From contig JAHFOO010000004.1 of NCBI GenBank assembly GCA_023261645.1, positions 4,486-68,485 of the forward strand: a stretch of DNA of 64,000 nucleotides. The letters are read 5' to 3'. The position numbers and the translations under genes were made by a program. Below are positions 2,269-62,433 of the stretch, one piece after another. Within the stretch, counting starts at the first letter, position 1, and the number at the start of each line of letters is the position of its first letter. This DNA is from Candidatus Moraniibacteriota bacterium (GTDB lineage: Bacteria > Patescibacteriota > Minisyncoccia > Moranbacterales > UBA1568). Under the pieces are notes generated by a model. That model saw nothing but the letters and a program-made list of their open reading frames with translations. It did not search any database and was not told where the DNA came from.

Positions 2269-3256
2269 GGATAGTACGAATTGAGAAAGTGCTTCGGAGT
2301 ACTTTTTTCTTTTCCAGGGTGTTTTTTTATTGTCTAGAGAAGTGAGTGAAGAGAAAATTTATTTTCACTTCCGAACGATTGACGACATCAAGGAGTCCTA
2401 CTCCTTATTACCGATAATATTGTCAAAGAGTACCAAAGAAATTCTGAAGAAATGTTTGTTACTCTTTTCTTTTTTGTGAAAAGAGCGATACACATTTCCG
2501 CAGAAGTGCCTTAACAATTTATGTCTTTTTCAAAGGGGTCACCGATTGCCTGGCAGCGGAAAGCAATCCGATTTTTTTGAGATAGTCTAAATAATGTATG
2601 TATACCTGCGCACTTTTTATCCAAAGTGCAAGGTAGAAAAGGTCAAGCAAATTCAACGTAGAAAAAACAGTGCGTCGAATGCGCAAACATTCTTCACTGT
2701 TAACCGATTGTCCGTGAGAATTTTCTCTTCTGAGAGAATTTTTGCGGACAAGAGAAAAAAGAAGGTTACTTAACGCATGGTGTGGATGCCTTGACTGAAG
2801 CAAGCGATGAAGGACGTAGGAGGCTGCGATAAGCCTCGGGGAGCTGTCAACCAAGCTTTGATCCGGGGATTTCCGAATGGGGCAACCCTTCCACTTTTTA
2901 GTGGAAAACCGTATCTGAATTCATAGGATACGGTAGCGCACCCTGGGAATTGAAACATCTTAGTACCAGGAGGAAAAGAAATTAATAAAGATTCCGTAAG
3001 TAGTGGCGAGCGAACGCGGAATAGCCTAAACCACCGAGCTTGCTCGTGTGGGGTTGCAGGGCTTGTAGACTCGATTGATCGGGGTCGTCGTATTTCTGTT
3101 AGCAAAATGTTCTGGAAAGAACAACCAAAGAGGGTAATAGTCCCGTATGTGAAAACGAGAATACCACGATGTACAAGTACCTAAGTAGGGCGGGGCCGGA
3201 GAAACCCCGTTTGAATCTGGGAGCACTAACTTCCAAGGCTAAATATTGCTTCAGAT

Positions 3257-3293
<37 letters not shown>

Positions 3294-4721
3294 CATCCCG
3301 ATAAGGGAGATGAAATAGAACTGAAACTCCATGCTAACGAAGAGTCGGAGCCTTGTTCAATCAGGGTGACGGCGTGCTTTTTGCAGCACGATCCAACGAG
3401 TTAATTTTACGCGGCTGTCTAAGGGATGATGAGTTCCGGAGACATAGTGAAAGCGAGCCTGAATAGGGCGAAATAAGAGTCGCGTGGATTAGACCCGAAG
3501 CCAGACGAGCTACATATGAGCAGGGTGAAGCGTGGGTAAAACCACGTGGAGGCCCGCACCCACTTGCTGTGCAACTCAAGGGGATGACTTGTGTGTAGGG
3601 GAGAAATTCCAATCGAGTTTGGCAATAGCTGGTTCTCTCTGAAATAGCTTGAGGGCTAGCGTCTTGTAAATTGTACCCGAGGGGTAGAGCTACTGGATGA
3701 GAATTCGCGGCTTGCCGTAGGATTTTCAACCAAACTCCGAATACTCGCGGTATTTACCAAGGCAGTCAGTACTCCGGGGCTAAGCTCGGAGCACAAAAGG
3801 GAAAAAGCCCAGATCGTCAGCTAAGGTCCCAAAATCTGTATTAAGTGGGAAAGGAAGTGAAAACTCTTAGACACTTAGGAGGTTGGCTTAGAAGCAGCAA
3901 TCCTTTAAAGAGTGCGTAATAGCTCACTAATCTAGAGTTTTCGCGCCGACAATGTAACGGGGCTAAAATACAGTACCGAAGCTACGGACTGTATCGCAAG
4001 ATACAGTGGTAAGAGAGCGTTCCGTATGCGCTGAAGCAGAAGGGTGACCGACTGTGGAGCGTACGGAAGTGAGAATGTTGGAATGAGTAACCGCAATGAG
4101 GGTGAGAGCCCCTCACATCGAAAGTCTGAGGTTTCCTGGGCCATGGTGATCATCCCAGGGTTAGTCGGTCCTAAGGCCAGGCTGAAAAGCGTAGTCGATG
4201 GACATCAGGTTAATATTCCTGAACTATTTGTATATTCGAGGGAGAGACGCATCTCTGTACCTCTTGCCCCTTATTGGATTGGGGTTTGGTCTTCGAGGAC
4301 GTCGTACAGGCAAATCCGTACGGCACTAGTCCAATGGAGATTGACGAAGTTTCACCACGGTGAGATGAAGGAGAGGGAGCGGGGTGCCAGGAAAATCTTC
4401 TAAGGTTCGTATACAAATATCCGTACCGCAAACCGACACAGGTAGACTGGGCGAGTAGCCTAAGATGAACGGGAGAGAATTCGTTAAGGAACTCGGCAAA
4501 AAAGCTAGACGTAAGTTCGCAATATGTCTTGCCAACCGCTGAGGTTGGCCGCAGCAAAAGTTTTCCAAGCAACTGTTTATCAAAAACACAAGTCTCTGCA
4601 AACCCGCAAGGGGAAGTATAGGGGCTGACACCTGACCAGTGCTGGAACGTTAACGGGAGCGGTGCAAGCCAATCCCCGAAGCGCCAGTGAACGTCGGCGA
4701 TAACTATAATCGTCCTAAGGT

Positions 4722-4979
4722 TTCGAAACGCTCGCAAGAGAGTTTCGAAAGGACTGGGACGATTGTAGGAAGTGTGATAAATAGAAAAGAAGAGCTGCTT
4801 CGTTCTGTAGTAATATAGAACAGGTCCTAAAAAAATACATGGCCATATGCTGGAAATCTGCTTTGCAGACAATCAGCAGGAAAGATCCTACTTGGTAGGA
4901 AATCCTCAGAGACTATATGCCATGCTCCTATAATAAAATATAGGATGAAGATAGAGTCCTTCGCCGAAAAGGAGCGAAA
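4722..4979 (+). mobile_element. ORF-less insertion (putative group I intron) in 23S between CCUAAGGU and AGCGAAAUUCC (E. coli ~1931 region)
   Basis: ~258 nt with no counterpart in the conserved 23S core; upstream exon ends in U as expected for a group I 5' splice site. Confidence 0.5.
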
Positions 4980-5020
4980 AGCGAAATTCCTTGTCAGGTA
5001 AATTGTCAGAATTGCCTGAA

Positions 5021-5740
5021 TATCGTGGTAACATGATATAAGTAACCCGGCTTATAACGGTGGAGCCTAACACTTGTTGAAACAAGTTATGGTAATACCG
5101 TGGGAAGTCCCCTGAGAGACATTCGAAGGGTGACCCCGTAACGACTGATGCGAAAGCAGAGGCCCCCGCCTATTGCGCGGAGGCAACACGCCGGCTCTTA
5201 TCTAACCCAAAAGAAACATATGGATTTTGCCTCTTACATTTCCGGTTTTGTAGATGGTGAAGGATGCTTTAGTGTATCTTTTACTCTTCGTGCAAAACTG
5301 AAGACAGGAATAGAGGTTCGACCGAGTTTTTCGATCGGACAGAATAAGCGCAGTCTGAAGCTGTTACAAGAAATAGAACAGTTTTTCCGATGCGGGAGTA
5401 TACGCTTTTCGTCACGTGATAATTGCTATAAGTATGAAACACGCGATATAAGCGAGCTCATGCGGAAAATTATTCCGCATTTCGAAAAATTCCCTCTTCA
5501 GTCAGATAAAGCGAGAGATTTCAAAATTTTTCGTGATATATGCAAAGAGATATCTACTGCAAAACATCTCAATCCAGAGCATTTGAGACAGATTATTCAT
5601 CTGGCTTATCAAATGAATGGGTCGGGAAAGAGGAAATATCCGGAAGCAGAACTCCTACGTGTTCTGGATAAGATGAAGATATAGTCTAATGAAGCGTGAA
5701 AACGTGAGATAATATAAATGAAGTTCTGACGCGCATGAAA
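5021..5740 (+). mobile_element. group I-type intron in 23S (E. coli ~1951 region, CACGAAU|GGCGUAAUGA) carrying a LAGLIDADG homing endonuclease ORF
   Basis: ~720-nt insertion; flanking exon sequence restores ...CCTGAAT|GGTGTAATGA matching the conserved 23S; boundaries +/-5 nt. Confidence 0.6.
5220..5684 (+). CDS. single-motif LAGLIDADG homing endonuclease encoded inside the 23S intron
   Basis: MDFASYISGFVDGEGCF... LAGLIDADG-type motif, basic C-terminal region; ORF lies wholly inside the rRNA insertion. Confidence 0.8.
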   Translation: MDFASYISGFVDGEGCFSVSFTLRAKLKTGIEVRPSFSIGQNKRSLKLLQEIEQFFRCGSIRFSSRDNCYKYETRDISELMRKIIPHFEKFPLQSDKARDFKIFRDICKEISTAKHLNPEHLRQIIHLAYQMNGSGKRKYPEAELLRVLDKMKI

Positions 5741-6005
5741 GGTGTAATGACTTGGAAACTGTCTCAACGAACATCCCGGTGAAATTGCAATGACGGTAAA
5801 GATGCCGTCGACCTACAGCTAGACGAAAAGACCCCATGGAGCTTTACTATAACTTGGTATTGACTTAAAGTTTTTGCTGCCGAGCATAGGTGGGAGACTA
5901 TGAAGCACCCCTTCTGGGGGGTGTGGAGTCATCACTGGAATACCACTCTGCAGAGATTTTAATTCTAACCCACGGCCGTAATCCGGTCGGGGGACAGTGC
6001 CTGGT

Positions 6006-6037
<32 letters not shown>

Positions 6038-6259
6038 GTGCAACGGAGGCGTTTACAAAGGTTCTCTAGGTCCGGATGGAAATCGGACCGATAGCGCAAA
6101 AGCATAAGAGAGCTTTACTGAAAGACCGATCAGTCGATCAGTTACGAAAGTAGAATTTAGTGAACCGACCATTACTCGTAGGAGTGTGGAAGATCATCAG
6201 ATAAAAGTTACCCTGGGGATAACAGGCTGATCTTGCCCAAGAGTCCATATCGACGGCAA

Positions 6260-6297
<38 letters not shown>

Positions 6298-6507
6298 GTG
6301 GAGAAGCTCCCAAGGGTTTGGCTGTTCGCCAATTAAAGTGGTACGTGAGCTGGGTTCAAACCGTCGTGAGACAGGTTGGTTTCCTATCTGCTGTAGGCGT
6401 GTGTTGCTTGAGAGAACTCTTTCCTAGTACGAGAGGACCGGAAAGAACGAACCTCTGGTGTATCTGCTGTTCCGCCAGGAGCATCGCAGAGTAGCTACGT
6501 TCGGGTA

Positions 6508-6540
<33 letters not shown>

Positions 6541-6849
6541 AAGCTCAAGATAAGGCAACAGTATCAGTTTACTGATACAAGATTTCCTAGAAGATTACTA
6601 GGTTGATAGGCTGCAGATGTAAGTCCCGAGAGGGATTCAGTCAAGCAGTACTAATAAATTTATTCAACTTTCTTTTTTCTAATCTTGTTTTATTCTCGCA
6701 AGAGAGTAAAGTGAGTTACGGTTAGCAGTGAAGAGTGCTTGAAAATGGGGACACAACAACATTATAAATTAGACGACAATTTGGAGGCCCGCCTGCAACG
6801 CTATGCGTAGCATTGCGGGCAGGGGAATCCAATACATTTTTGAGAGCAG

Positions 6850-6966
6850 AGTATCCGGTGCTTCTAGCGAAGTGGAAACACCTGATTCCATACCGAACTC
6901 AGCAGTTAAGCACTTCAGCACCGATGGTAGCCTTCAGTGGCAAGAGTAGGACAGTGCCGGGTACTC
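6850..6966 (+). rRNA. rrf: 5S ribosomal RNA
   Basis: CCGAACTCAGCAGTTAAGC...GATGGTAGC...AGAGTAGGACAGTGCCGGG conserved 5S core about 180 nt after 23S 3' end; ends approximate. Confidence 0.8.
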
Positions 6967-11690: not shown

Positions 11691-12734
11691 ATGGAACCCT
11701 CTTCTGTACTCAATCCCTTAGATACATTCAATTTTCGTCAGATGATTATCGATAGTCCCGATCAATTCCGTGTTGGTTTCGAGATTGCCAAGGGTGTCCA
11801 TATTCCAGGGTCTTTCAAATCAGTGATGATATCGGGTATGGGAGGATCGGCGCTTCCTGGCAATATCTTCCGTATCTATCTCAATGATCTTTTTCGCAAA
11901 GACGCCGGAGACGAACAACCGCTCGCCATTTATCAGAATCGTTCCTATACTCTTCCTCCGGAAGCTTTCGATAATTGTCTCAATTTCATTTGTTCTTATT
12001 CCGGCAATACGGAAGAAACCATCGCCTCTTTCGAGATGGCATTGGAGCATCATCTTCCCTGCATCGGACTTTCAAGCGGAGGGAAAGTGGAAGAGATCTG
12101 TCTGGCGAATGATATTCCTCATATCAAATTGCCCGTTCCTTTTCCTGGTTTTCAGCCTCGTGTGGGTACCGGTTATTTCTTTGGATCGATGTTCCAGATA
12201 CTCATCAATCTCGGCTTGGTCCGCGATACCACGGAAGAATTGCTTGCGGAAGCTGAGAAGATAAGACAATCATTGCCAGATTTGGAGGAACAAGGAAAAT
12301 TGTTATCGAAGAAACTCGTCGGCAAGACTCCTGTTATTTATGCTGACACCAAATACAAATCAGTCGCTATGGTGTGGAAGATAAAGTTCAATGAGAATGC
12401 CAAGACCCCGGCTTTCTGGAATTTTTTCCCAGAATTGAATCACAATGAGATGGTGGGGTGGACATTGCCTCAAGGGAAGTTTATGATTCTGATGCTTCGT
12501 GACAATGATACTCATCCGAGAATTCTGAAACGTCTCGAAGTGACAGCGGAGCTACTCCGTGGCAAAGGCATCGAAGTGGAGGCGATCGATATGGTAGGCA
12601 CGAGTGTCTTTGAAAAGATATTCGGGACTATCCTCATCGCAGATTTTGCTTCATATTACTTGGCGCTGGAATATGGACAGAACCCGACACCGGTGGATAT
12701 GGTGGAAGATTTGAAAGAACGTTTAGTTGCTTAA
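11691..12734 (+). CDS. bifunctional phosphoglucose/phosphomannose isomerase (SIS-domain, archaeal-type PGI/PMI)
   Basis: SIS-domain motifs (SGMGGSA, CSYSGNTEET) and PGI/PMI C-terminal region. Confidence 0.75.
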   Translation: MEPSSVLNPLDTFNFRQMIIDSPDQFRVGFEIAKGVHIPGSFKSVMISGMGGSALPGNIFRIYLNDLFRKDAGDEQPLAIYQNRSYTLPPEAFDNCLNFICSYSGNTEETIASFEMALEHHLPCIGLSSGGKVEEICLANDIPHIKLPVPFPGFQPRVGTGYFFGSMFQILINLGLVRDTTEELLAEAEKIRQSLPDLEEQGKLLSKKLVGKTPVIYADTKYKSVAMVWKIKFNENAKTPAFWNFFPELNHNEMVGWTLPQGKFMILMLRDNDTHPRILKRLEVTAELLRGKGIEVEAIDMVGTSVFEKIFGTILIADFASYYLALEYGQNPTPVDMVEDLKERLVA

Positions 12735-12861
12735 ACCCGATAGTGAAACTTCGAAAGTATTGGTCTAGTAATAGCATGAAGGGTTTTGTAATGTTGGTTT
12801 GACTGAGATAGAATATAATTTTTTTAAGAAACTTCGTTTATTCGAAGTTCTACTACCGGGT

Positions 12862-13893
12862 ATGTATAGCGTTATTCTGTGCGGTGGGTCAGGGACACGA
12901 TTGTGGCCGATGAGTCGAAAAAATTTTCCGAAACAGTTTTTGAAACTCTATGGAGACACGTCTCTTTTGCAGGAGACATACCTTCGTATTCGAGAACTTC
13001 TTCCATCGACACATATTTTCTTCGTCACGAACAGAGAGAATTCCCGCAATGTTTCAGAACAGATCCGTGATATTGAGAAAGATTTCAAGGAGGAACAGAT
13101 TATCATCGAACCGGCAGCACGCAATACCGCACCGGCCATTGCTCTTGCGATGAAATACTTGACTGAAAGGGTCGGAATAGATGCAGGAGAATCTGTACTT
13201 TTTCTTCCATCCGATCATTATATCGGGAACAAGAATGTGTATCTGAAGACGATAGAGCGGGCCCTTAGTGCCAAAGAGGATCGCATCGGAACAATCGGTA
13301 TCGTACCGACAAAGGCCGAGACAGGGTATGGATATATCCGCAAGGGAGGAAAGGAATCCAATGACTCTTTCTCCGTACTCGAATTCAAAGAGAAGCCAGA
13401 TAGGGCGACCGCAGAAAAATATCTCGCTTCGGGAGAATATCTCTGGAATTCCGGTATGTATTTTTTCAATGCACGGACGTTCTTCCAGGAACTGAGAGCG
13501 TATGCGCCGGAAATAGCTTCTTTCTTCGAAGATGATTTCGCAACGATCTTGACCAAGTATGCTTCTGCTCCGGCCGTATCCATCGATTATGCCGTATCGG
13601 AGAAATCGAAGCGTGTCGTCGTCTTTGCAGGGGATTTCGGTTGGAGTGATATCGGATCATTTGATAGCCTGGCAGATATTATCGGACACAATCCGGCCGC
13701 GAGACACATCGGTATCGATTCGAAGAACGTGTATACGTACAGTACGGAAAATCGTCTGATAGCGACTATCGGCGTGGAGGATTTGATTGTCGTGGAGACC
13801 AAGGGCAGTATCCTCATTTGCAAGCGCGGACATGCCGAAGATGTCAAAAAAGTAGTGGAAAAATTGAAAGAGAATGAAGAAAAAGAGCTTTAA
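12862..13893 (+). CDS. manC: mannose-1-phosphate guanylyltransferase (GDP-mannose pyrophosphorylase)
   Basis: SVILCGGSGTRLWPMSR...PKQF N-terminal nucleotidyltransferase signature; ATG at 12862 preferred over upstream TTG at 12799. Confidence 0.85.
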   Translation: MYSVILCGGSGTRLWPMSRKNFPKQFLKLYGDTSLLQETYLRIRELLPSTHIFFVTNRENSRNVSEQIRDIEKDFKEEQIIIEPAARNTAPAIALAMKYLTERVGIDAGESVLFLPSDHYIGNKNVYLKTIERALSAKEDRIGTIGIVPTKAETGYGYIRKGGKESNDSFSVLEFKEKPDRATAEKYLASGEYLWNSGMYFFNARTFFQELRAYAPEIASFFEDDFATILTKYASAPAVSIDYAVSEKSKRVVVFAGDFGWSDIGSFDSLADIIGHNPAARHIGIDSKNVYTYSTENRLIATIGVEDLIVVETKGSILICKRGHAEDVKKVVEKLKENEEKEL

Positions 13894-18436: not shown

Positions 18437-19771
18437 TTATCCTCGTATGAGAGCGAGGAGTTCGGCTTGTTTTTCTTCCATCATCGCCTGGGTTGTCGCT
18501 TCGAGGTTGAGACGCAGAAGCGGTTCGGTGTTGGATGGACGGACATTGAACCACCAGTCGTCATAATCGACTTTCAGTCCATCGAGCTCGCTTATCGTTC
18601 CATCGCTGTATTTCGCTTTGAGTTTTGCGAGGACAGCATCCTTGTCTGTCACCTCGCTGTTGATTTCGGCCGAGTGAGCGTATCGCTTGAGATCGGATAC
18701 GAGCGCGGAGAGAGATCTGCCTGTTTCTGTCATCAGGTTGAGGAGGAGGAAGGCGGCCAATGTACTGGCTTCTGCGAATGAATTCTCTTCGAAATAATAG
18801 TGTCCGGAGAGTTCGCCTGCGAAGATGGCACCGTCCACACGCATCTGTCTTTTGATGAAGGCGTGCCCGACACGGCATTCTTTCGCAATACCGCCGTTTT
18901 CTTCGATGACTTCTCGTACGGCACGGGAAGACCGCAAGTCATAAAGGATGGTTGCGCCAGGACGTTTCTCGAGGATGATTTTCGCCAGGAGTCCGGTGAT
19001 GAGATCCATCGGGATGACCGTGCCTGTTTCATCGGTGAATCCGACTCGGTCAGCATCCCCATCATACGCGATGCCGAGATCGGCGTGCGTCTCTTTCACC
19101 CTAAGAGAGAGTTCATCGAGAGTTTCTGTTTTCAGAGGATTGGCTTCGTGACACTGAAATGGATGATTGAGATCGTTGTAGAGGTTGATGATGGCGAGAT
19201 TTTCAGGAAATTGTTCGTACATCGGAAGTTCGAGTACGCCCATAGAGTTGGCAGTATCGATAGCCACCGTGAATTGTTTGTCTCCAAATTCGGCGAATGA
19301 TGTGAAATAGCCGTAGTAGGCGGGACGGATGTCCTTAGTAGTCATTGTTCCTTTCCGCTCGACATCTTCCCATTCGCCTCGTAGCGCAAGATCGCGGATT
19401 TCCTTGAGGCCGGAATCTTCACCGACAGGGAGTGCTCCACGGAGAGCTATCTTCAGTCCATTGTACTCGGGAGGATTGTGAGAAGCGGTGAGGGAAATAG
19501 CCGCATCGACATCCAAACGACCGGCAGCGAAATATACCATCGGAGTGCTGATGACGCCGAGATCGATGACATCAGAACCTCCATCCATCACCCCGCGTGT
19601 GAAGCTGGCAAAAAGCGCCGGACTCGATGGTCGTATATCGCGACCGATTGCGAGGCGTGTCGGTTTGAGGTATTCGACGACCGCACGACCGATAGTATAG
19701 GCATCATCTTCGTCGATATCATCAGGATAAATACCGCGGATATCGTAAGCTTTGAAAATATGTGGGTTCAT
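18437..19771 (-). CDS. phosphomannomutase/phosphoglucomutase (alpha-D-phosphohexomutase family)
   Basis: MNPHIFKAYDIRG start, TASHNPPEYNG active-site Ser loop, domains I-IV; start moved from ORF-track 19939 to internal ATG at 19771. Confidence 0.85.
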   Translation of the reverse strand: MNPHIFKAYDIRGIYPDDIDEDDAYTIGRAVVEYLKPTRLAIGRDIRPSSPALFASFTRGVMDGGSDVIDLGVISTPMVYFAAGRLDVDAAISLTASHNPPEYNGLKIALRGALPVGEDSGLKEIRDLALRGEWEDVERKGTMTTKDIRPAYYGYFTSFAEFGDKQFTVAIDTANSMGVLELPMYEQFPENLAIINLYNDLNHPFQCHEANPLKTETLDELSLRVKETHADLGIAYDGDADRVGFTDETGTVIPMDLITGLLAKIILEKRPGATILYDLRSSRAVREVIEENGGIAKECRVGHAFIKRQMRVDGAIFAGELSGHYYFEENSFAEASTLAAFLLLNLMTETGRSLSALVSDLKRYAHSAEINSEVTDKDAVLAKLKAKYSDGTISELDGLKVDYDDWWFNVRPSNTEPLLRLNLEATTQAMMEEKQAELLALIRG

Positions 19772-20027
19772 AAGGAATAAGAAAAGAATATGATACGGAT
19801 AGTATATCATATTCTGTCTGAAATGAATGAAAGGAGTACATTCGAGAGGGGGACTTGACAGAAACGTCAATCTGTGCAAAGCTTGTATCACCACAGGGCG
19901 GAATGACTCCTTTTTGGTTTCATCCTCTTCTGTGGCCACGTAAGCCCTTTGACAATTTACAGTGCGTTATCAAAGACGTATTTTGCTTTGTTGACGGGTT
20001 TTTTCTTTCAAAATCAAGGAAATCATC

Positions 20028-37746: not shown

Positions 37747-37859
37747 TCATTGTTTTTCATTGTAACGAGATTTTTCTCTGTCGGCAACTGTGTCTTCAGT
37801 CATATATTACGGGGGGAGTAATAAAAAATACACCCAGTATGGATGTATCTTGATCTTGG

Positions 37860-37933
37860 CGGGAGCGACCGGACTCGAACCGGCGACCTACTGCGTGACA
37901 GGCAGTCGCTCTAACCAGCTGAGCTACGCCCCC
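37860..37933 (-). tRNA. tRNA-Asp (GUC)
   Basis: minus-strand cloverleaf GGGGGCGTAGCTCAGCTGGTTAGAGCGACTGCCTGTCACGCAGTAGGTCGCCGGTTCGAGTCCGGTCGCTCCC. Confidence 0.9.
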
Positions 37934-37949
37934 GTTTATTTTTTCCTTG

Positions 37950-38023
37950 TACCAGGGGCGAGATTCGAACTCGCGACCCCAGCCTTATGAAGGCTATGCT
38001 CTAACCGACTGAGCTACCCTGGC
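37950..38023 (-). tRNA. tRNA with CAU anticodon (elongator Met or lysidine-modified Ile2)
   Basis: GCCAGGGTAGCTCAGTCGGTTAGAGCATAGCCTTCATAAGGCTGGGGTCGCGAGTTCGAATCTCGCCCCTGGTA. Confidence 0.85.
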
Positions 38024-38095
38024 TTCTTTTGTAAAAACAAAAAAGCACACTTGGGCCTTTTTTGATACTTCGCTACCGCTTGCTTTAGGGCGGTG

Positions 38096-38115
38096 CCTGC
38101 CTGTCGGCAGACAGG
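38096..38115. repeat. palindromic repeat copy (short form) between tRNA genes
   Basis: CCTGCCTGTCGGCAGACAGG. Confidence 0.75.
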
Positions 38116-38221
38116 GATTCGTCCGGGGAGCCTGGGATTTTTCTTTTCAGAAAAAAATCCCTTCTCATCCACTCGTAAGTGAAGCAGTTCACTTACTCCC
38201 TCCTCTCTTCGCTATCGCTTG

Positions 38222-38295
38222 TTGCGGGGGGTGGATTCGAACCACCGACCTTCTGGTTATGAGCCAGACGAGCTGCCAGACTGCTCTACCCCGCT
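38222..38295 (-). tRNA. initiator tRNA-fMet (CAU)
   Basis: AGCGGGGTAGAGCAGTCTGGCAGCTCGTCTGGCTCATAACCAGAAGGTCGGTGGTTCGAATCCACCCCCCGCAA; near-identical to E. coli tRNA-fMet with unpaired 1:72 (A:A). Confidence 0.85.
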
Positions 38296-38420
38296 CTATA
38301 AAACTCACCACATTTGCCACAGAGCAAGCTCTAAACCTGTTCAACCATCATACAGCATACTGTTCTGCAAGCCAAGTAATCCTTGTCTTGTTACGATATG
38401 TATTTTATGATTTTTGTGGG

Positions 38421-38494
38421 TGGGTGATCCAAGATTCGAACTTGGGACCTCTACATTATCAGTGTAGCGCTCTAACCAACTGAGCTAATCACCC
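38421..38494 (-). tRNA. tRNA-Ile (GAU)
   Basis: GGGTGATTAGCTCAGTTGGTTAGAGCGCTACACTGATAATGTAGAGGTCCCAAGTTCGAATCTTGGATCACCCA. Confidence 0.9.
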
Positions 38495-38575
38495 CTTGAA
38501 TAAACCTCTCTGTTTGCAAAAGGGTATTTCAAATGCTACCACAAATGTGAAAAAATTTCAAGAGGAGGAATACGG

Positions 38576-38648
38576 TGGACCGTACAGGACTCGAACCTGC
38601 CACCCCCGCATTGCAAATGCGGTGCTCTACCAGATGAGCTAACGGCCC
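38576..38648 (-). tRNA. tRNA-Ala (UGC) with G3:U70
   Basis: GGGCCGTTAGCTCATCTGGTAGAGCACCGCATTTGCAATGCGGGGGTGGCAGGTTCGAGTCCTGTACGGTCCA. Confidence 0.9.
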
Positions 38649-43540: not shown

Positions 43541-43576
43541 TGAAAAAAAGTGAATCAATTGATTCACTTTTTTGTT
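43541..43576. terminator. bidirectional hairpin terminator between convergent genes
   Basis: aaaaaaagtgaatcaattgattcacttttttg. Confidence 0.6.
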
Positions 43577-44766
43577 TGATTGAATGTGGTGAGTACTTCC
43601 GTATACAGTCCTTGCCATTCTTCCGCAATTTTTTCACGTGAGAATTGTTTGACGAATGTTCTGCCACCTTCACCGAGTCGTTTCCTTTCCTCTGGATGTT
43701 TATAGAGGAAAAGAATCGTATCGGCGAGAGCCTTGTAATCACCAGGCTCCACAAGAGAGCCGTTCTCATTATCGTGGATGTATTCCGCCAAAGCTCGAGC
43801 ACGTGCTCCGATGGGTGGAATGCCGGTTGCCATCGCTTTCATCATACTCAGGCTCTGTGTCTCAGCCGTGCTCATAATGGCGAATATGTCGGCTGCACGA
43901 TAGATACGGGCGTGGTCTTCGGCACATACAGTACCAAAAAATTTCACTCGGTCTTCTACTCCGAGTTTTTTGGTCAGCATTCGGAGTGAGACTTCTCCTT
44001 CTCCGTGACCGGTGATGGCGAGGCATATTTCCGGAATTTTTTCTTTGAGGATCGCTATTGCTCGTATGATATCGTCGATATGTTTTTCCGGGGCCAGCCG
44101 TCCAGTATAGAGAATGACAAAAGAAGATAGTCCAAATTCCTTTTTGAGAGTTATTTGTTCTTCGGAAGAAGCGGGGAAAAAATGATCGAGGTCGATAGGG
44201 TTGGAAATGACACGACTCCGTTTGTGGAATCCGTACTGATGCATTTCGTCGAGAATTCCTTGTGATGGAGCGGTGACGAAATCACAGCGATTGTAATACC
44301 ACGAGACGAAACGAAGAGCGAATTTTTGGAGAAATTTCGCCTGTATCGGGCTATACCGGAGGAATTCGGTAAGAGGAGTGTGACTCGTACCGACGAGCGG
44401 TCTGTGTAAGAAAAAACTTGCCAGCAGTCCTTCGAATCCGGCTCCAAAAAAAAGATGGGTATGAATGATGTCTGGATATCTCTTTCGCAAAGGAATCCAT
44501 CTGAGAAATGTCGGAACAATCATCCGACCTTGCTTCGTCGGTGCCGGAAAAGGAAGAGCTAAGAGCCGATGAATGGATACGCCTTCACCGATTTCAGCTT
44601 CTCGGTAGGGGAGATGGGAAATTGTGAAATCCTTTTTTCCGTAGCGTGGTACGAAAAAATCGATTTCGTGTCCGAGACGGGAAAGTTCGCCCGCTTGTTC
44701 GACGAGCGAATCTGAAATACCGGACAGTTCCGGGTAAAAATTGTCCGAGAAAATGGCTATCTTCAT
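43564..44766 (-). CDS. glycosyltransferase family 4 (GT-B, group 1)
   Basis: MKIAIFSDNFYPELSGISD start, EX7E-like motif near C-terminus. Confidence 0.8.
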   Translation of the reverse strand: MKIAIFSDNFYPELSGISDSLVEQAGELSRLGHEIDFFVPRYGKKDFTISHLPYREAEIGEGVSIHRLLALPFPAPTKQGRMIVPTFLRWIPLRKRYPDIIHTHLFFGAGFEGLLASFFLHRPLVGTSHTPLTEFLRYSPIQAKFLQKFALRFVSWYYNRCDFVTAPSQGILDEMHQYGFHKRSRVISNPIDLDHFFPASSEEQITLKKEFGLSSFVILYTGRLAPEKHIDDIIRAIAILKEKIPEICLAITGHGEGEVSLRMLTKKLGVEDRVKFFGTVCAEDHARIYRAADIFAIMSTAETQSLSMMKAMATGIPPIGARARALAEYIHDNENGSLVEPGDYKALADTILFLYKHPEERKRLGEGGRTFVKQFSREKIAEEWQGLYTEVLTTFNQTKK

Positions 44767-44859
44767 AAATGAAAATGATGTATATCAGGAAGTGACTGTT
44801 CCAAGAATAGAAGAGAAAACGGTTTCTGTCTATGTCTGTTTGTGCTAGAATAAGGCTAT

Positions 44860-45630
44860 ATGAAACTTTCTATTGTTATTCCGGCTTACAATGAAGAGGC
44901 TTATATCGGAAAATGTCTCGAATCGATAGCGATGGAAAGAGCACGTGGTTCTTTTGATGTGGAAGTGATTGTCGTCAATAATGCCAGTGATGATACGACG
45001 GGGGAAGTAGCACAATCATTCCCATTTGTTCGGGTGGTTGATGAGCCGAAGAAAGGATTGGTGCGGGCTCGTCAGACGGGATATGAAGCCTCTGCAGGAG
45101 ATCTTGTTGCCAACGTTGATGCGGATACGCTTGTGCCGAAAGGATGGATCAGTACTGTTTTCGAAGAATTCTCGGCTGATCCGAAATTGGTAGCTCTTTC
45201 CGGACCATATATGTATTATGACTTGTCAGCTGTTACGAATTGGTCTATTTTATTTTGGTATCGATTGGGACAGATAGTCAGTTTTTTGAATACTCTTGTC
45301 ACGAATCGAAGCGGAACGATGCTTCAGGGTGGAAATTTTGTTTTACGACGAAGCGCTTTGGAGAAGGCCGGTGGCTTTGATCTCAATTTTGATTTTTATG
45401 GTGAAGATACGGCTATCGCCAAACAAATGAGCAGTCAGGGAAAAGTAAAGTTCACTTTTCGCCTTCCTATGTACACATCGGGGCGGAGACTGCAGGCAGA
45501 AGGAATTTTTACGATGGCTCTGAAATATGGAATGAATTTCTTGTGGACGATTCTTTTCGATAAACCGTACACCAAAGAATATAAAGATATCCGTGTATGC
45601 AAGAACAATCGTGGCGGAAAAAATGGATGA
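44860..45630 (+). CDS. glycosyltransferase family 2
   Basis: SIVIPAYNEE, DAD (DxD) motif. Confidence 0.8.
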   Translation: MKLSIVIPAYNEEAYIGKCLESIAMERARGSFDVEVIVVNNASDDTTGEVAQSFPFVRVVDEPKKGLVRARQTGYEASAGDLVANVDADTLVPKGWISTVFEEFSADPKLVALSGPYMYYDLSAVTNWSILFWYRLGQIVSFLNTLVTNRSGTMLQGGNFVLRRSALEKAGGFDLNFDFYGEDTAIAKQMSSQGKVKFTFRLPMYTSGRRLQAEGIFTMALKYGMNFLWTILFDKPYTKEYKDIRVCKNNRGGKNG

Positions 45631-58362: not shown

Positions 58363-58503
58363 GTACGGAGTGGAATAATAGATATATTCTATGTAAAATC
58401 GACATCTGTCGATTCTTTTTACTTTTCCCACAGCATAGCATTTTATCATTTTGGTTTTATGTAGGCATTTTCTGTGATATACTGAAAAAAAATACAGAAA
58501 GAA

Positions 58504-60378
58504 ATGCTTTTGCCTCACAACCATCAGAATCTTGTCGTCTTCAAAAAAAAAGATAGGGTGCACCTTCTCTGGCGTGTTTCTGATTCTTCGATTCCCGGTA
58601 TTTTTTCAGTTGAAAGTGTCAACGGAAAAATATTCAAAAAAACATCTTCTCTCATCACCCTCTATCATACCGACGGAACGAAATCGGTACTCAGCGATGA
58701 CCCGATGCTCCGTGCGAGCACCCTTGGTGTCAAGACACTTTTTACTTTCATCAACAAAAAGAAGGAAGGCGTCTTTGTCACGATTACACAAGGTGGATCA
58801 GGAAAGATACTGGCAGAATCCTCTTTGTTCCACGGACCGACAGTGTGCGTCAGATTGCCGGCCAAAGATGGAAAAAAAGCCAAAATCATCGCCTTTTCAC
58901 CTCATGGTAAGAAGACGATTTTTCAGGCGAACATATCAGTTGATTTCAAGCATTTTCTCGATAAAGGTGATGTGATCGAAGCTCGTCGGCAGAAGTTTGA
59001 TGTGTCTGAACTCCGGCCTCTCTTTGCAGATATTGTTCCGCAGGGGATTCTTCTTGTCTATTCGGCGAAAAATACATCCGGTAGACTGACCATCGGTGCC
59101 ACTCTTTTTGATCGTGGTCGTCCGAAGGAATTGTTGTGGCAGAGTGATGAAGCCTTGTGGGAAGCACCTGAATATATTTCATCTCAAGCGACATGTATCG
59201 GAGGCGTCAATATCGGAAAGTACTTTTTTATCTACATCCAATCTCCAGGAGAAGCTGTTGAGCGGTTTCCAATCGCCCGTTACTGGGAGACAGTACAAAA
59301 AAACAAGAGAAGAGAATTCATCTTGCCTTCCCGTAAAAAAGGGGAGCGGATAGAATTGGCGCGTTTTGAATCCAATCCCGTCCTGGAACCGATCATCAAA
59401 AATTCCTGGGAAGCCTTCGCGACGTTCAACCCCGCTGCTCTCTATCTAGGTGGTCGTATCCATCTCCTCTATCGTGCTCAAGGATATGATGGGACTTCTG
59501 TTCTGGGCTATGCGTCGAGTTCTGATGGCATCACTATCGATGAACGTCAAGAAAAACCGGCCTTCATACCAAACAGTACTTCATCGAGAAAGCATGAAGG
59601 TCATTTTCCCTATGTTTCCGGTGGTGGTACAGGCGGATGCGAAGATCCTCGTCTCGTAGAGATTGATGGATGGGTATATCTCATATATGTTTCTTTTGAT
59701 GGTTCTCATCCACCAGGAGTAGCTCTCTCCTTCATTTCGAAAGTTGATTTTCTTGCAAAACGCTTTCGATGGTCTCGCTCGAAACTTATTTCTCGGCCAG
59801 GTGAGATTCAGAAAAATTGGGTTCTTTTCCCTCGGAAAATCAATGGAAAATTCGTCGTTCTCCACGGTCTGAGCCCGAAGATTCGCATCGAATATCTCGA
59901 TGATCCGAAAAAACTCGGTGACGGAAAATATATTCAGAGCCTGACCTCTCATGGGGGAGGAGGATATATCGAAGCCACTCGTTTGCGGGCGTGGGACAAT
60001 ATCGTCCGAGGAGTCGGTGCTCCTCCGCTCTGGACCAAGTATGGGTGGCTCATTTTCTATCACGGTATGGATATGCGCGATCCGGGAAGATACAAGGTGG
60101 GCGTGATGCTTCTCGATCTCGAACATCCGGAAATTGTTCTCCATCGCGCTGTCGAGCCGGTTCTTGAACCCGAAACATCGTATGAGAACAATGGTCACAA
60201 ACGCGGTGTCGTGTACGTCTGTGGATCGGTCATCAAAGGAAAAAAACTTTTCGTGTATTATGGGGCGGCGGATCGGACATCGGCTGTAGCGATGGCAGAC
60301 CTGGATGTTTTCCTCCAATCTCTCCTCAAAGAAAAACCACCTCTTCTTCAAAAAATGAATCCCAGAAAAATCAATTAA
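58504..60378 (+). CDS. GH130-family glycoside phosphorylase/hydrolase with ~290-aa unknown N-terminal domain
   Basis: C-terminal half has GH130 signatures (FESNPVLEP, NPAALY, GCEDPRL, YLIYVSFDG, VYYGAAD). Confidence 0.7.
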   Translation: MLLPHNHQNLVVFKKKDRVHLLWRVSDSSIPGIFSVESVNGKIFKKTSSLITLYHTDGTKSVLSDDPMLRASTLGVKTLFTFINKKKEGVFVTITQGGSGKILAESSLFHGPTVCVRLPAKDGKKAKIIAFSPHGKKTIFQANISVDFKHFLDKGDVIEARRQKFDVSELRPLFADIVPQGILLVYSAKNTSGRLTIGATLFDRGRPKELLWQSDEALWEAPEYISSQATCIGGVNIGKYFFIYIQSPGEAVERFPIARYWETVQKNKRREFILPSRKKGERIELARFESNPVLEPIIKNSWEAFATFNPAALYLGGRIHLLYRAQGYDGTSVLGYASSSDGITIDERQEKPAFIPNSTSSRKHEGHFPYVSGGGTGGCEDPRLVEIDGWVYLIYVSFDGSHPPGVALSFISKVDFLAKRFRWSRSKLISRPGEIQKNWVLFPRKINGKFVVLHGLSPKIRIEYLDDPKKLGDGKYIQSLTSHGGGGYIEATRLRAWDNIVRGVGAPPLWTKYGWLIFYHGMDMRDPGRYKVGVMLLDLEHPEIVLHRAVEPVLEPETSYENNGHKRGVVYVCGSVIKGKKLFVYYGAADRTSAVAMADLDVFLQSLLKEKPPLLQKMNPRKIN

Positions 60379-60390
60379 TATATTCTTTCT

Positions 60391-62313
60391 ATGTCATTTT
60401 TCAAACGATCCTTTGAAAACCCCATATTGGTACCGGAAAGCGACCTTCCTTGGGAGCTGGAAGGAGCCTTCAATGGTTCAGCTCTTCGTGAAAAAGGGAA
60501 AACGAGACTTTTTTATCGGGCTCAATCTTTACCGCTCTTGCATGAGGATGGACCATGGCTCTCACTCTCATCGATCGGTCAAACGGAAAGCTCGGATGGT
60601 ATCCATTTCAAGAAACATCGCCCATTCATCAAACCGGAATTCTTATGGGAACGATTCGGTTGTGAAGATCCGCGAATCACGAAATGTGATGGGAAATATT
60701 ATATTTTTTATACTGCTCTTTCTGAATTTCCTTTCCGTGCCGAAGGAATATCTGTCGGTCTCGCGCTGACAAAAAACTTCAAACAGATCGAGAAGCATCA
60801 CATCACACCGTTCAATGCGAAAGCGATGACTCTTTTTCCGGAGCGTATCGATGGCAAACTCTGGGCGCTTCTTTCCGTGAATACCGATCAACCGCCGTCG
60901 ACGACTGCATTTGCTTCATTCGAGAATGAGGAAGATCTCTGGAATATGGAAAAGTGGAGCAAGTGGTATCAGAATCTTGATAAGCATGGATTCGATTTGC
61001 GCCGAAGCGATGATGACCATATAGAAATCGGCGCTCCACCAATCAAGACGAAAGACGGTTGGCTCCTCCTGTATTCGTATATCCAGAAATATTATTCGTC
61101 AGATCCGATTTTCACCGTGGAGGCCATCCTTCTCGATCTCGAAAATCCGAGAAAAATCATCGCTCGTACCGAAAATCCTCTGCTTGTCCCGGAAGAAGAA
61201 TATGAATATTACGGCAAGGTCAAGAATATCGTTTTCCCTACCGGATTGGTGAAACGTGGCGATACGCTTTTCCTCTATTATGGTGCTGCCGATACGACAA
61301 CGTGTGTTGCTACGGGAAGTCTGAAGAAGCTCCTCTCTCAAATGAGAATGACCAAAAAAGATCAACCTCTTTTCACACGGTATCGGAAGAATCCTGTTCT
61401 CGAACCGATCCCTTCACATTCTTGGGAAGCGAAAGGAGTGCTCAATCCTGCGGCAATCGAATCGGATGGAAAAGTTCGCATTCTCTATCGTGCTACTGCG
61501 GAAGATGACACTTCTGTTTTCGGATATGCCGAAAGCCGTAATGGTTTTCGAATTTCCAAACGTTCTCCCGAGCCTGTGTATGTCCCACGAGTTTCCTTTG
61601 AGCAGAAACAAGCTCCTGGGAATTCCGGATGTGAAGACCCGCGTCTGACCAGGTTCGGTGATACCTACTATATGCTGTACACTGCCGTCGATGCTGTCTC
61701 TCCGCCACGAGTGGCTCTTTCGACGATCTCAGTGACAGATTTCTCGGCTGGTCGTTTCGAAAATTTTTCTCTTCCGATACTCCTTTCTCCTCCGAACATC
61801 GATGACAAGGACGCTTGTCTTTTTCCGGAGAAAATCGTGGGGAAGTATGTCATATTGCATCGTATCCAACCGGCCATCGACATCAATTTTTTTGAGAATC
61901 TCGATTTTGACGGAGAAACGAAATTTTTGACGCATCAACCATTCATTTTCCCTCGACGAGGTATGTGGGATAGTCGGAAAATCGGTATCAATACCGCCCC
62001 GATCAAAACAAAAAAAGGATGGCTCGTTCTGTATCATGGTGTTTCGGAGTATGATGGGCAATATCGTATCGGGGCGCTTCTTCTCGATCTTGAACATCCG
62101 GAAAAAGTCATCGGACGGAGTCGTCTGCCGATTTTCAGTCCGGAAGAGGACTATGAGAGGATTGGTGTTGTTCCCAATGTCGTTTTCCCTTGCGGATCGA
62201 TTGTTCGTGAAAAGAAATTGATCATTTATTATGGAGGTGCCGATCGAGTCATCGGTGTAGCGAGCATCTCTTTGCCGAAACTTCTCAGGTCTCTTCTTGT
62301 CGACGGTATATGA
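60391..62313 (+). CDS. protein with two tandem GH130 domains
   Basis: two repeats each with NPILVP/NPVLEP, GCEDPR(I/L)T, (Y/M)LYTA, L(F/I)YYG(A/G)AD motifs. Confidence 0.75.
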   Translation: MSFFKRSFENPILVPESDLPWELEGAFNGSALREKGKTRLFYRAQSLPLLHEDGPWLSLSSIGQTESSDGIHFKKHRPFIKPEFLWERFGCEDPRITKCDGKYYIFYTALSEFPFRAEGISVGLALTKNFKQIEKHHITPFNAKAMTLFPERIDGKLWALLSVNTDQPPSTTAFASFENEEDLWNMEKWSKWYQNLDKHGFDLRRSDDDHIEIGAPPIKTKDGWLLLYSYIQKYYSSDPIFTVEAILLDLENPRKIIARTENPLLVPEEEYEYYGKVKNIVFPTGLVKRGDTLFLYYGAADTTTCVATGSLKKLLSQMRMTKKDQPLFTRYRKNPVLEPIPSHSWEAKGVLNPAAIESDGKVRILYRATAEDDTSVFGYAESRNGFRISKRSPEPVYVPRVSFEQKQAPGNSGCEDPRLTRFGDTYYMLYTAVDAVSPPRVALSTISVTDFSAGRFENFSLPILLSPPNIDDKDACLFPEKIVGKYVILHRIQPAIDINFFENLDFDGETKFLTHQPFIFPRRGMWDSRKIGINTAPIKTKKGWLVLYHGVSEYDGQYRIGALLLDLEHPEKVIGRSRLPIFSPEEDYERIGVVPNVVFPCGSIVREKKLIIYYGGADRVIGVASISLPKLLRSLLVDGI

Positions 62314-62404: not shown

Positions 62405-62433
62405 TTGACAGGATAGAGACAATACGCTATAAT
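62405..62433 (+). promoter_or_regulatory. consensus sigma70 promoter of cspA (TTGACA-N17-TATAAT) with ~75-nt 5' UTR
   Basis: perfect hexamers, 17-nt spacer. Confidence 0.6.

What the first reader, a model, noticed from the sequence alone, without database searches (positions are those of the whole stretch)
58504..62313. Three GH130 beta-mannoside-phosphorylase-like modules in two adjacent genes, one fused to an unknown 290-aa N-terminal domain
Gene 58504-60378 has an uncharacterised N-terminal half followed by a GH130 domain. Gene 60391-62313 has two complete GH130 domains in tandem. All three carry the GCEDPR motif and the YYG(A/G)AD end motif. GH130 enzymes are beta-mannoside phosphorylases or hydrolases that yield mannose-1-phosphate. 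The same window encodes phosphomannomutase, PGI/PMI and ManC. Together these could form a mannoside-salvage route into glycolysis and GDP-mannose in an organism with minimal metabolism. The tandem-domain architecture and the N-terminal domain are not standard for GH130.
Basis: partly seen in the sequence, partly recalled or inferred. Interest (0 to 1): 0.55.

Follow-up and report, generated by a model that had tools for sequence, protein, structure and literature searches.

The report
Four-module GH130 mannoside enzyme gene pair
Two adjacent genes in an ultra-small (CPR, Moranbacteria-like) bacterium encode four copies of the GH130 beta-mannoside-enzyme fold, not three plus an unknown domain. 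Only one copy keeps a complete phosphorylase active site, and the same two-gene cassette is conserved across many CPR lineages.

Summary
ORFs 58504-60378 (G1, 624 aa) and 60391-62313 (G2, 640 aa) exist as described. Three modules match Pfam GH130 (E 6e-40 to 3e-57) and carry the GCEDPR and YYG(A/G)AD motifs.

The "unknown" 290-aa N-terminus of G1 is a fourth, degenerate GH130-fold propeller without the catalytic Glu-Asp. Support: profile-profile E 2e-7 to 9e-12, AlphaFold pLDDT 90.7, and the top 31 PDB fold matches all GH130.

The modules are not equivalent:
- G2-B keeps every residue of a beta-1,2-mannoside phosphorylase (75/75 loci).
- G2-A keeps the sugar subsites and the proton-donor Asp. 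It has lost the phosphate ligands and gained an invariant Glu at the position of the BT3780 mannosidase base Glu268.
- G1-C has a remodelled anion site. Loss of two basic residues co-varies perfectly with gain of Arg502.

The [N-C][A-B] pair is adjacent in at least 75 of 83 loci from Moraniibacteriota, Paceibacteria, Saccharimonadia, Roizmanbacteria and others. Fused versions also exist.

PGI/PMI, ManC and PGM/PMM are in the window but 39-47 kb away. The salvage idea is plausible, was already proposed for the closest characterised enzymes, and is untested here. I rate this a new variant of a known kind, of moderate interest.

The parts
58504..60378 (+). Gene G1 (624 aa): degenerate GH130-like module N followed by GH130 module C. 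No signal peptide or transmembrane segment.
   Evidence: ORF listing; Pfam; more than 120 full-length homologue clusters at 42-68% identity; maximum Kyte-Doolittle hydropathy 1.16.
58504..59349 (+). Module G1-N (aa 1-282): GH130-fold five-bladed propeller that has lost the catalytic Glu-Asp and the phosphate ligands. Predicted pseudo-enzyme, scaffold or binding module.
   Evidence: hhalign against G1-C, G2-A and G2-B profiles gives probability 93.7, 91.4 and 97.4% with E 2e-7, 9e-7 and 9e-12. AlphaFold2 pLDDT 90.7, pTM 0.88. The top 31 Foldseek PDB matches are all GH130, E 2e-10 to 5e-6, TM 0.63-0.71. The catalytic columns are variable.
59350..60375 (+). Module G1-C (aa 283-624): GH130 with intact -1/+1 subsites and proton donor (R324, E380, D381, K437, H520, Y530, D590) but a remodelled anion site (G455, V501, R502). 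Carries conserved Gly-rich insertions.
   Evidence: Pfam E 6e-40; 40% identity to Teth514_1788; column counts.
59635..59652 (+). GCEDPR motif of G1-C (E380 is the beta-1,2 determinant; D381 is the proton donor).
   Evidence: invariant in 83/83 loci.
60007..60009 (+). Arg502 of G1-C. This basic residue is gained in exactly those lineages that lost Arg455 and Lys501.
   Evidence: Co-variation of 64 versus 19 loci with no exceptions.
60391..62313 (+). Gene G2 (640 aa): two complete GH130 modules, A and B. No signal peptide.
60391..61356 (+). Module G2-A (aa 1-322): GH130 with donor Asp93 and the sugar subsites kept. The phosphate ligands are replaced (S162, H210, S229, F241) and invariant carboxylates are gained (D166, E212, E244). 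The signature is hydrolase-like.
61024..61026 (+). Glu212 of G2-A, aligned with the catalytic-base Glu268 of the beta-1,2-mannosidase BT3780 (Glu247 of PDB 4onz).
   Evidence: MAFFT and HMMER alignments; 75/75 loci; BT3780 mutagenesis in PMC4599007.
61357..62310 (+). Module G2-B (aa 323-640): canonical beta-1,2-mannoside-phosphorylase-type module (R367, E415, D416, K473, H490, R491, K530, H549, Y558, D618).
   Evidence: Pfam E 2.8e-57; 42-43% identity to Teth514_1788/1789; all key columns invariant in 75/75 loci.
58397..58414 (+). Terminator-like hairpin plus T-run after the upstream response-regulator gene. It marks the likely 5' boundary of the G1-G2 transcription unit.
   Evidence: This is a consensus match only.
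58475..58483 (+). Possible extended -10 element (TGaTATACT), 21 nt upstream of the G1 start codon.
   Evidence: Read by eye in the sequence; not called by the scanner. Tentative.
62405..62433 (+). Perfect sigma-70 consensus (TTGACA-17-TATAAT) ahead of the downstream cold-shock gene. It marks the likely 3' boundary of the cassette.
11691..13893 (+). Distant context: bifunctional PGI/PMI-type isomerase (11691-12734) and ManC mannose-1-phosphate guanylyltransferase (12799-13893).
   Evidence: Pfam PF10432 E 1e-45; PF00483 and PF22640.
18437..19939 (-). Distant context: phosphoglucomutase/phosphomannomutase.
   Evidence: Pfam PGM_PMM domains I-IV.

Best explanation
G1 and G2 form a bicistronic, cytoplasmic cassette encoding four GH130-fold propellers that arose by duplication: G1 = N-C, G2 = A-B. 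The cassette is conserved as a unit across the Candidate Phyla Radiation (CPR).

Predicted roles of the modules:
- G2-B is a canonical inverting beta-1,2-(oligo)mannoside phosphorylase. It releases alpha-mannose-1-phosphate by proton relay from Asp416, with phosphate held by Lys473, Arg491, Lys530 and His549.
- G2-A binds the same sugars and keeps the proton donor. Its phosphate site has been exchanged for carboxylates, so it most likely hydrolyses beta-1,2-mannosides, or otherwise acts without phosphate, with Glu212 as the base.
- G1-C keeps the sugar subsites, His520 and Tyr530 but uses a relocated Arg502. It is probably still an anion-dependent enzyme with altered donor or chain-length preference.
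- G1-N is non-catalytic. It probably acts as the partner subunit of a covalent pseudo-dimer.

The products, Man1P and mannose, can enter PMM to PMI/PGI (glycolysis) or ManC (GDP-mannose).

Shown: the architecture, the fold, the residue patterns, the synteny and the fusions. Inferred: the activities, the substrates, complex formation and the metabolic role.
For: Family and closest relatives:
- GH130 membership of three modules.
- Nearest solved relatives are Teth514_1788 (E 1e-46 for the G1-C module; 1.5e-43 for the G2-A module; 3e-60 for whole G2) and Teth514_1789, at 35-43% identity.
- The beta-1,2 determinants are invariant in all three modules: a Glu next to the donor Asp, and a Lys at the UhgbMP R150 position. 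Criteria are from PMC7660257 and PMC4599007.

Per-module residue evidence:
- G2-B: the R168 and H231 equivalents and the Uhgb_MS K184/R202/R242 equivalents are invariant in 75/75 loci (residue roles from PMC12814180).
- G2-A: R168eq is S/T, R242eq is H/Q, H231eq is S/A/C and Tyr is replaced by Phe. E212 is present in 75/75 loci at the BT3780 E268 position. The mapping goes through 4onz, with a constant offset of 21 checked at 7 residues. E268A/Q mutants of BT3780 retain 0.4-0.5% activity.
- G1-C: perfect co-variation. 64 loci have (G/N/S)455-(V/L/I/M)501-R502; 19 loci have R455-K501-(I/L/A)502.
- G1-N: GH130 fold with variable catalytic columns.

Cassette-level evidence:
- The pair is adjacent, in the same order and on the same strand, in at least 75 of 83 loci, with variable neighbours.
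- Fused proteins exist: C-A-B, a fragment of N plus C-A-B, and C-B.
- There is no signal peptide or transmembrane segment.
- PGM/PMM, PGI/PMI and ManC are in the window.
Against: - No activity was measured.
- NCBIfam equivalog models for beta-1,2-mannobiose phosphorylase score below their cut-offs (206.6 and 426.7 against 450 bits).
- G2-A has only one of the two BT3780 glutamates; position 163 is A/V/P. Unlike most GH130 hydrolases, it has no signal peptide.
- No source of beta-1,2-mannoside and no conserved transporter is evident near the cassette in any genome.
- The mannose-phosphate genes are 39-47 kb away.
- The relative packing of the G1 modules is uncertain (pTM 0.56 for the full-length model), and the model coordinates could not be inspected.
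Confidence: 0.55

Rival explanations
1. One reading: all three Pfam-positive modules are active beta-mannoside phosphorylases. They might differ in chain length, like the adjacent Teth514_1788/1789 pair, and all would yield Man1P for salvage.
For: All three keep the proton-donor Asp, the Glu/Lys beta-1,2 determinants and the -1 subsite residues. The closest characterised system is a pair of adjacent GH130 phosphorylases with different chain-length specificity (PMC4264767).
Against: G2-A lacks the Arg, Arg/Lys, His and Tyr phosphate ligands in 75/75 loci and carries carboxylates instead. G1-C lacks two of the three basic ligands in 64/83 loci, and lacks His in 17 of the other 19. In GH130, loss of these residues distinguishes non-phosphorylases (PMC4599007, PMC7660257).
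Confidence: 0.12
2. Only G2-B is catalytic. G1-N, G1-C and G2-A are non-catalytic GH130-derived modules (lectin-like mannoside binders, or structural subunits of a hetero-oligomer) that tether or present substrate.
For: Canonical phosphate sites are lost in three of the four modules. GH130 enzymes work as oligomers, and loops from neighbouring subunits shape the active site (PMC12814180). Sugar-binding residues alone would also be conserved in a binding module.
Against: The proton-donor Asp is strictly invariant. New invariant carboxylates appear in G2-A (E212, D166, E244), and there is a compensatory Arg swap in G1-C. These look like selection on catalysis or anion binding, not only on sugar binding.
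Confidence: 0.22
3. The cassette runs a mannogen-like reserve cycle. A remodelled module (G1-C) synthesises intracellular beta-1,2-mannan from GDP-mannose or Man1P. G2-B then phosphorolyses it, and G2-A trims or primes it.
For: Beta-1,2-active GH130 phosphorylases have weak GDP-Man transferase activity, and GT108 enzymes with the same active-site layout build and degrade Leishmania mannogen (PMC12814180, PMC10913872). All modules are cytoplasmic. No uptake system is linked to the cassette. ManC is in the genome.
Against: There is no evidence of beta-1,2-mannan in any CPR organism. The residues that bind the nucleotide phosphates in Uhgb_MS (R202, R242) are the ones lost in G1-C type II. ManC is not linked to the cassette.
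Confidence: 0.1

Closest known systems
Teth514_1788 (1,2-beta-oligomannan phosphorylase, PDB 9FJ8) and Teth514_1789 (beta-1,2-mannobiose phosphorylase, PDB 7FIP), Thermoanaerobacter sp. X-514, subfamily GH130_6
   Same: They are the best sequence matches of all three recognisable modules, at 35-43% identity. G2-B has the same catalytic, phosphate-binding and beta-1,2 specificity residues. They are encoded by two adjacent genes, are cytoplasmic, and have a proposed role of supplying Man1P for GDP-mannose.
   Different: The Thermoanaerobacter proteins are single-module (about 300 aa) and both are canonical phosphorylases. They sit in a cluster with an ABC transporter, GH5, ManC and GT4. Here each gene carries two modules, three of the four modules deviate from the canonical site, and no neighbours are conserved.
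BT3780 / BACOVA_03624 / BACOVA_02161 (GH130_3 beta-1,2-mannosidases, PDB 5A7V, 3QC2, 4ONZ)
   Same: G2-A shares the loss of the basic phosphate ligands and has a Glu at the BT3780 Glu268 position. The donor Asp, the neighbouring Glu and the sugar-binding residues are the same.
   Different: G2-A lacks the second glutamate (Glu227 equivalent) and has no signal peptide. It is only 29% identical to 4onz and is closer in sequence to the phosphorylases. Its extra invariant carboxylates (D166, E244) have no described counterpart.
Uhgb_MS / Lin0857 (GH130_4 beta-1,2-mannoside phosphorylase-transferases)
   Same: Same fold and mechanism. Their K184/R202/R242 phosphate-pair ligands map onto K473/R491/K530 of G2-B.
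   Different: The 48-aa lid loop specific to GH130_4 is absent. Transferase activity is untested here.
GH130-GH130 bimodular entries in CAZy (four sequences in 2018, uncharacterised; PMC7660257)
   Same: Tandem GH130 modules in one polypeptide.
   Different: In the paper both modules of each protein fell into the same sequence-similarity meta-node, and no function or pseudo-module was reported. Here the modules are functionally differentiated, one is degenerate beyond Pfam recognition, and two such genes form a conserved pair. I could not check whether the CAZy entries are CPR proteins because the supplement is not held.
Leishmania GT108 MTP array (mannogen synthesis and turnover)
   Same: A set of paralogous propellers with a GH130-like active site, diversified between phosphorylase and non-phosphorylase activities on beta-1,2-mannan.
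   Different: A different CAZy family. Sequence relatedness was not tested here, and no mannogen is known in CPR.

Membership tests
CAZy GH130 / Pfam PF04041 | Significant match to the family profile above the curated threshold | tested here: met
   G1-C E 6e-40, G2-A E 1.9e-44 and G2-B E 2.8e-57 against a 26-bit cut-off. G1-N has no Pfam match and is not a member by this criterion.
CAZy GH130 / Pfam PF04041 | Five-bladed beta-propeller fold | tested here: met
   The G1-N AlphaFold2 model (pLDDT 90.7) has its top 31 PDB matches all in GH130. G1-C in the full model is all-beta with pLDDT about 85-95. G2 modules were not modelled, but they align end-to-end with solved GH130 structures.
CAZy GH130 / Pfam PF04041 | Invariant proton-donor Asp (UhgbMP D104 / BT3780 D142) | tested here: met
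   D381, D93 and D416 are invariant in 83, 75 and 75 loci. Not met in G1-N, where the aligned column is A/T/S/E/H.
GH130 glycoside phosphorylases | Phosphate-binding Arg/His pair (UhgbMP R168/H231) plus Lys/Arg (Uhgb_MS K184, R242) | tested here: met
   Met for G2-B only: R491, H549, K473 and K530 in 75/75 loci. For G2-A it is not met (S/T, S/A/C, H/Q). For G1-C it is partly met: His, Lys and Tyr are kept, but the Arg is replaced in 64/83 loci.
GH130 beta-1,2-specific enzymes | Glu adjacent to the donor Asp, and Lys at the UhgbMP R150 / BT3780 K199 position | tested here: met
   E380/K437, E92/K144 and E415/K473 are invariant. Criteria are from PMC4599007 and PMC7660257.
GH130_3 beta-1,2-mannosidases (hydrolases) | Pair of glutamates (BT3780 E227 and E268) replacing the basic phosphate ligands; usually secreted | tested here: inconclusive
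   G2-A has the E268 equivalent (E212, 75/75 loci) but A/V/P at the E227 position, and no signal peptide.
NCBIfam NF052550 beta-1,2-mannobiose phosphorylase (equivalog) | Score at or above the curated whole-protein cut-off (450 bits) | tested here: not met
   G1 scores 206.6 bits. G2 scores 426.7 bits, summed over two modules.
GH130 phosphorylases or hydrolases | Demonstrated phosphorolysis or hydrolysis of a beta-mannoside | not testable with these tools
   Needs enzyme assays.
GT108 / mannogen-type system | Sequence membership in GT108, GDP-Man-dependent beta-1,2-mannan synthesis, and presence of the polymer | not tested
This is a literature analogy only.

The most novel reading that the evidence does not exclude
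The four-module cassette is a self-contained intracellular beta-1,2-mannan (mannogen-like) storage and turnover machine of CPR bacteria. A remodelled module would polymerise mannose from GDP-Man or Man1P. The canonical module would recover it as Man1P without spending ATP. The hydrolase-like module would trim or prime the chain, and the pseudo-module would scaffold the complex. If so, organisms thought to lack reserves would have a carbohydrate reserve.
Probability: 0.1. Interest if true: 0.8.

Novelty: new variant of a known kind. Interest (0 to 1): 0.45.

Why it matters
CPR/Patescibacteria have tiny genomes and very few carbohydrate-active enzymes. Even so, about 3.8 kb is kept for four GH130 propellers across many of their classes, which implies an important role in their sugar economy. 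That role could be ATP-free capture of mannose as Man1P from host or environmental beta-1,2-mannosides, or an internal reserve.

For enzymology, the cassette is a natural series within one fold: canonical phosphorylase, hydrolase-like, anion site rebuilt by a compensatory Arg swap, and pseudo-enzyme. It speaks directly to how GH130 switches between phosphorolysis, hydrolysis and transfer, which is an active question (PMC12814180, PMC10913872). It also gives concrete mutational targets: E212, R502, and G455 versus R455.

Tried and rejected
1. A word-indexed homologue search with the N-terminal 290 aa alone found nothing. The exhaustive HMMER search and a search with the full protein did find homologues, so the first negative was a sensitivity artefact.
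2. Pairwise BLASTP of G1-N against the other modules was only suggestive (E 0.06-0.3). Profile and fold comparison were needed.
3. A weak Pfam PIGA hit in G1-N (E 0.004-0.012, below threshold) was rejected as chance. The weak GH43 and GH32 hits in G2-A are propeller-clan cross-matches.
4. An operon link between the cassette and ManB, PMI or ManC was rejected. They are 39-47 kb away, and neighbours differ in every other genome examined.
5. Supplementary tables with residue lists and CAZy bimodular entries were not available. I derived residue equivalences from printed HMMER alignments and a MAFFT alignment of reconstructed PDB sequences instead.
6. No Rfam element or riboswitch lies near the cassette.
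Taxonomy rests on named homologues and on the record titles of the GTDB loci.


Full report
**Observation.** Pfam PF04041 (GH130) matches G1 aa 303-602, G2 aa 61-318 and G2 aa 348-632, with E-values of 6e-40, 1.9e-44 and 2.8e-57 when the pieces are scanned alone. The GCEDPR and YYG(A/G)AD motifs are present in all three. G1 aa 1-290 has no significant Pfam match.

**The N-terminal domain is a fourth GH130-like module.** The evidence runs from sequence to fold:
- I aligned 65 full-length G1 homologues and split the alignment at residue 282.
- The N-terminal profile aligns colinearly over 238 columns with the C-terminal GH130 profile (hhalign probability 93.7%, E 2e-7).
- It aligns even better with the G2-B profile (97.4%, E 9e-12).
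- An exhaustive HMMER search with the N-terminus alone found 49 representatives. Nearly all were 610-650-aa proteins hit at their N-termini, and many were hit a second time.
- That search also found single-module proteins that Pfam itself calls GH130: P0151 and P0155.
- An AlphaFold2 model of residues 1-282 is confident (pLDDT 90.7, pTM 0.88).
- Its 31 best PDB matches are all GH130 structures (E 2e-10 to 5e-6, TM 0.63-0.71). Other propellers appear only from E 3e-5.
- The columns aligned with the catalytic Glu-Asp are variable in this module, so it is a degenerate, presumably non-catalytic copy.

Both genes therefore have the same two-propeller layout: G1 = N-C and G2 = A-B. Module C is closest to B (43% identity between the two module profiles by hhalign, E 2e-100).

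**What each module retains.** The defining residues come from the literature:
- The proton donor is UhgbMP D104, equivalent to BT3780 D142.
- The phosphate ligands are R168 and H231.
- The +1 subsite residues are R59, Y103 (Glu in beta-1,2 enzymes), R150 (Lys in beta-1,2 enzymes) and D304 (PMC7660257).
- In Uhgb_MS the phosphate pair is held by K184, R202 and R242 (PMC12814180).
- In the hydrolase BT3780, Glu227 and Glu268 replace the basic residues and act as the base. E268A/Q mutants keep 0.4-0.5% activity (PMC4599007).

I mapped these residues through HMMER alignments to 9FJ8, 7FIP, 5B0P, 9EQQ and 4ONZ and through a MAFFT alignment. The 4ONZ to BT3780 numbering offset of 21 was checked at seven mutated residues whose identities all match. 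This places BT3780 E227 and E268 at 4ONZ E206 and E247.

I counted the columns in 59-65 close homologues and in 75-83 independent loci. The results were:
- **G2-B** has every phosphorylase residue, invariant in 75/75 loci: R367, E415, D416, K473, H490, R491, K530, H549, Y558, D618.
- **G2-A** keeps R43, E92, D93, K144 and D301. At the phosphate-ligand positions it has S/T162, H/Q210, S/A/C229 and F241.
- G2-A also carries invariant carboxylates where all other modules have Gly or neutral residues: D166, E212 and E244. E212 aligns with BT3780 Glu268.
- **G1-C** keeps R324, E380, D381, K437, H454, Y530, K531 and D590, but shows two mutually exclusive anion-site patterns.
- In 64 loci, including the window, the pattern is (G/N/S)455-(V/L/I/M)501-R502 with His520.
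- In the other 19 loci the pattern is R455-K501-(I/L/A)502, mostly with Gln or Tyr in place of the His.
- This exception-free swap looks compensatory. It argues that G1-C still binds an anion rather than being dead.

**Conservation and distribution.**
- G1 has more than 120 full-length homologue clusters at 42-68% identity.
- G2 is more conserved, at 56-82% identity.
- Named relatives are Candidatus Moranbacteria/Moraniibacteriota, the Parcubacteria group and Minisyncoccota.
- A scan of GTDB species representatives found 231 loci. The 80 kept include Moraniibacteriota, Paceibacteria/Paceibacterota, Minisyncoccota, Saccharimonadia, Roizmanbacteria and Doudnabacteria.
- I scanned these loci with HMMs of the four modules. 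The [N-C] gene is immediately followed by the [A-B] gene on the same strand in at least 75 of 83 loci, and the exceptions are cut by contig ends.
- Flanking genes differ between genomes, so the pair itself is the conserved unit.
- Some proteins fuse the two genes or subsets of modules. C-A-B occurs at 971-996 aa. A fragment of N plus C-A-B occurs at 1110 aa. C-B occurs at 697 aa. This Rosetta-stone hint suggests that the products work together.

**Local anatomy.** A terminator-like hairpin (58397-58414) follows the upstream response-regulator gene. The G1-G2 gap is 12 nt. A perfect sigma-70 consensus (62405-62433) precedes the downstream cold-shock gene. This fits a two-gene transcription unit. 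Neither protein has a signal peptide or a hydrophobic segment, so both are cytoplasmic.

**Metabolic context.** The window does encode a PGI/PMI-type isomerase (11691-12734), ManC (12799-13893) and a PGM/PMM (18437-19939, minus strand). They lie 39-47 kb from the cassette and are not linked to it in other genomes. Chiku et al. already proposed the route from beta-1,2-mannoside through Man1P to GDP-mannose, or through PMM and PMI to glycolysis, for Teth514_1788/1789. There it was backed by a cluster containing an ABC transporter, ManC and a GT4 (PMC4264767). Here the route is plausible but rests only on gene presence. No substrate source or importer is evident.

**Mechanistic reading.** Most likely (about 0.55) the cassette encodes a cytoplasmic multi-propeller assembly acting on beta-1,2-mannosides. 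It would comprise one canonical phosphorylase (G2-B), one hydrolase-like module (G2-A), one module with a rebuilt anion site (G1-C) and one pseudo-enzyme scaffold (G1-N). GH130 enzymes are obligate oligomers, and Teth514_1788 is a dimer. The tandem layout may therefore be a covalent pseudo-dimer. This is an inference: the inter-module confidence of the full model is modest (pTM 0.56), and I could not inspect the coordinates.

The rivals are:
- All three modules are phosphorylases (0.12). This is disfavoured by the residue data.
- Only G2-B is catalytic (0.22).
- A mannogen-like synthesis and turnover cycle (0.10).

**Comparison with what is known, and novelty.**
- GH130 membership of three modules and the beta-1,2 specificity signature are met.
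- The NCBIfam equivalog thresholds are not met.
- The hydrolase signature of G2-A is only half met.
- Multi-module GH130 proteins are rare and uncharacterised. More than 99% of the family is mono-modular, and CAZy held four GH130-GH130 entries in 2018.
- I found no paper describing this cassette, its pseudo-module or its CPR-wide conservation. One Microgenomates genome paper merely notes "two enzymes of family GH130" without signal peptides.

I rate this a new variant of a known kind, of moderate interest (0.45). It is solid and well conserved and gives clear experimental handles, but the fold and chemistry are familiar and the biological role remains inferred.

Noticed in passing
window 2759-6962: The 23S rRNA gene (2759-6676) is interrupted by a group I intron (Rfam hit 4802-4974) that carries a LAGLIDADG homing-endonuclease ORF (5148-5684). 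5S rRNA follows at 6854-6962. No 16S lies upstream; the gene at 5-2122 is a TPR protein. Unlinked, intron-bearing rRNA genes are typical of CPR bacteria and fit the Moranbacteria assignment.
   Followed up: partly
L006, L009, L013, L060, L073 and other loci: Many third-party-annotated (TPA) MAG records that carry the CPR-type cassette are titled 'uncultured Bdellovibrionales', 'Gammaproteobacteria' or 'Pseudomonadales'. One at 68% identity to G1 is an example. These labels look like mis-assigned taxonomy rather than real occurrences outside CPR.
   Followed up: no
G1 aa 359-377 (window 59578-59634) and aa 479-495 (window 59938-59988): G1-C carries two conserved Gly-rich insertions absent from Teth514_1788/1789. 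One is SGGGTGG, directly before the catalytic CEDPR (S372, G373 and G378 invariant, G374, G375 and G377 at 90% or more), and it has low pLDDT in the model. The other is SHGGGGY, before the WD..RG strand. They could act as a lid or as backbone-amide phosphate binders. Their function is unknown.
   Followed up: partly
P0125 (2299 aa): A 2299-aa protein matched G1-N residues 39-95 in eight separate stretches (E 3e-9) but matched none of the four module HMMs. It is probably a repeat protein sharing a beta-blade-like motif.
   Followed up: no
window 43564-45630: A GT4 glycosyltransferase (43564-44766, minus strand) and a GT2 glycosyltransferase (44860-45630, plus strand) are divergently arranged about 13 kb upstream of the cassette. 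They are possible GDP-mannose consumers, but no link to the GH130 pair was seen.
   Followed up: no
window 62405-62433: A 12/12 match to the sigma-70 consensus (TTGACA-17-TATAAT) lies in front of a 65-aa cold-shock-domain gene. Such a perfect match is unusual.
   Followed up: no
window 37857-38648: Five tRNA genes cluster on the minus strand (Asp, Met, Met, Ile, Ala) next to dprA and topA.
   Followed up: no
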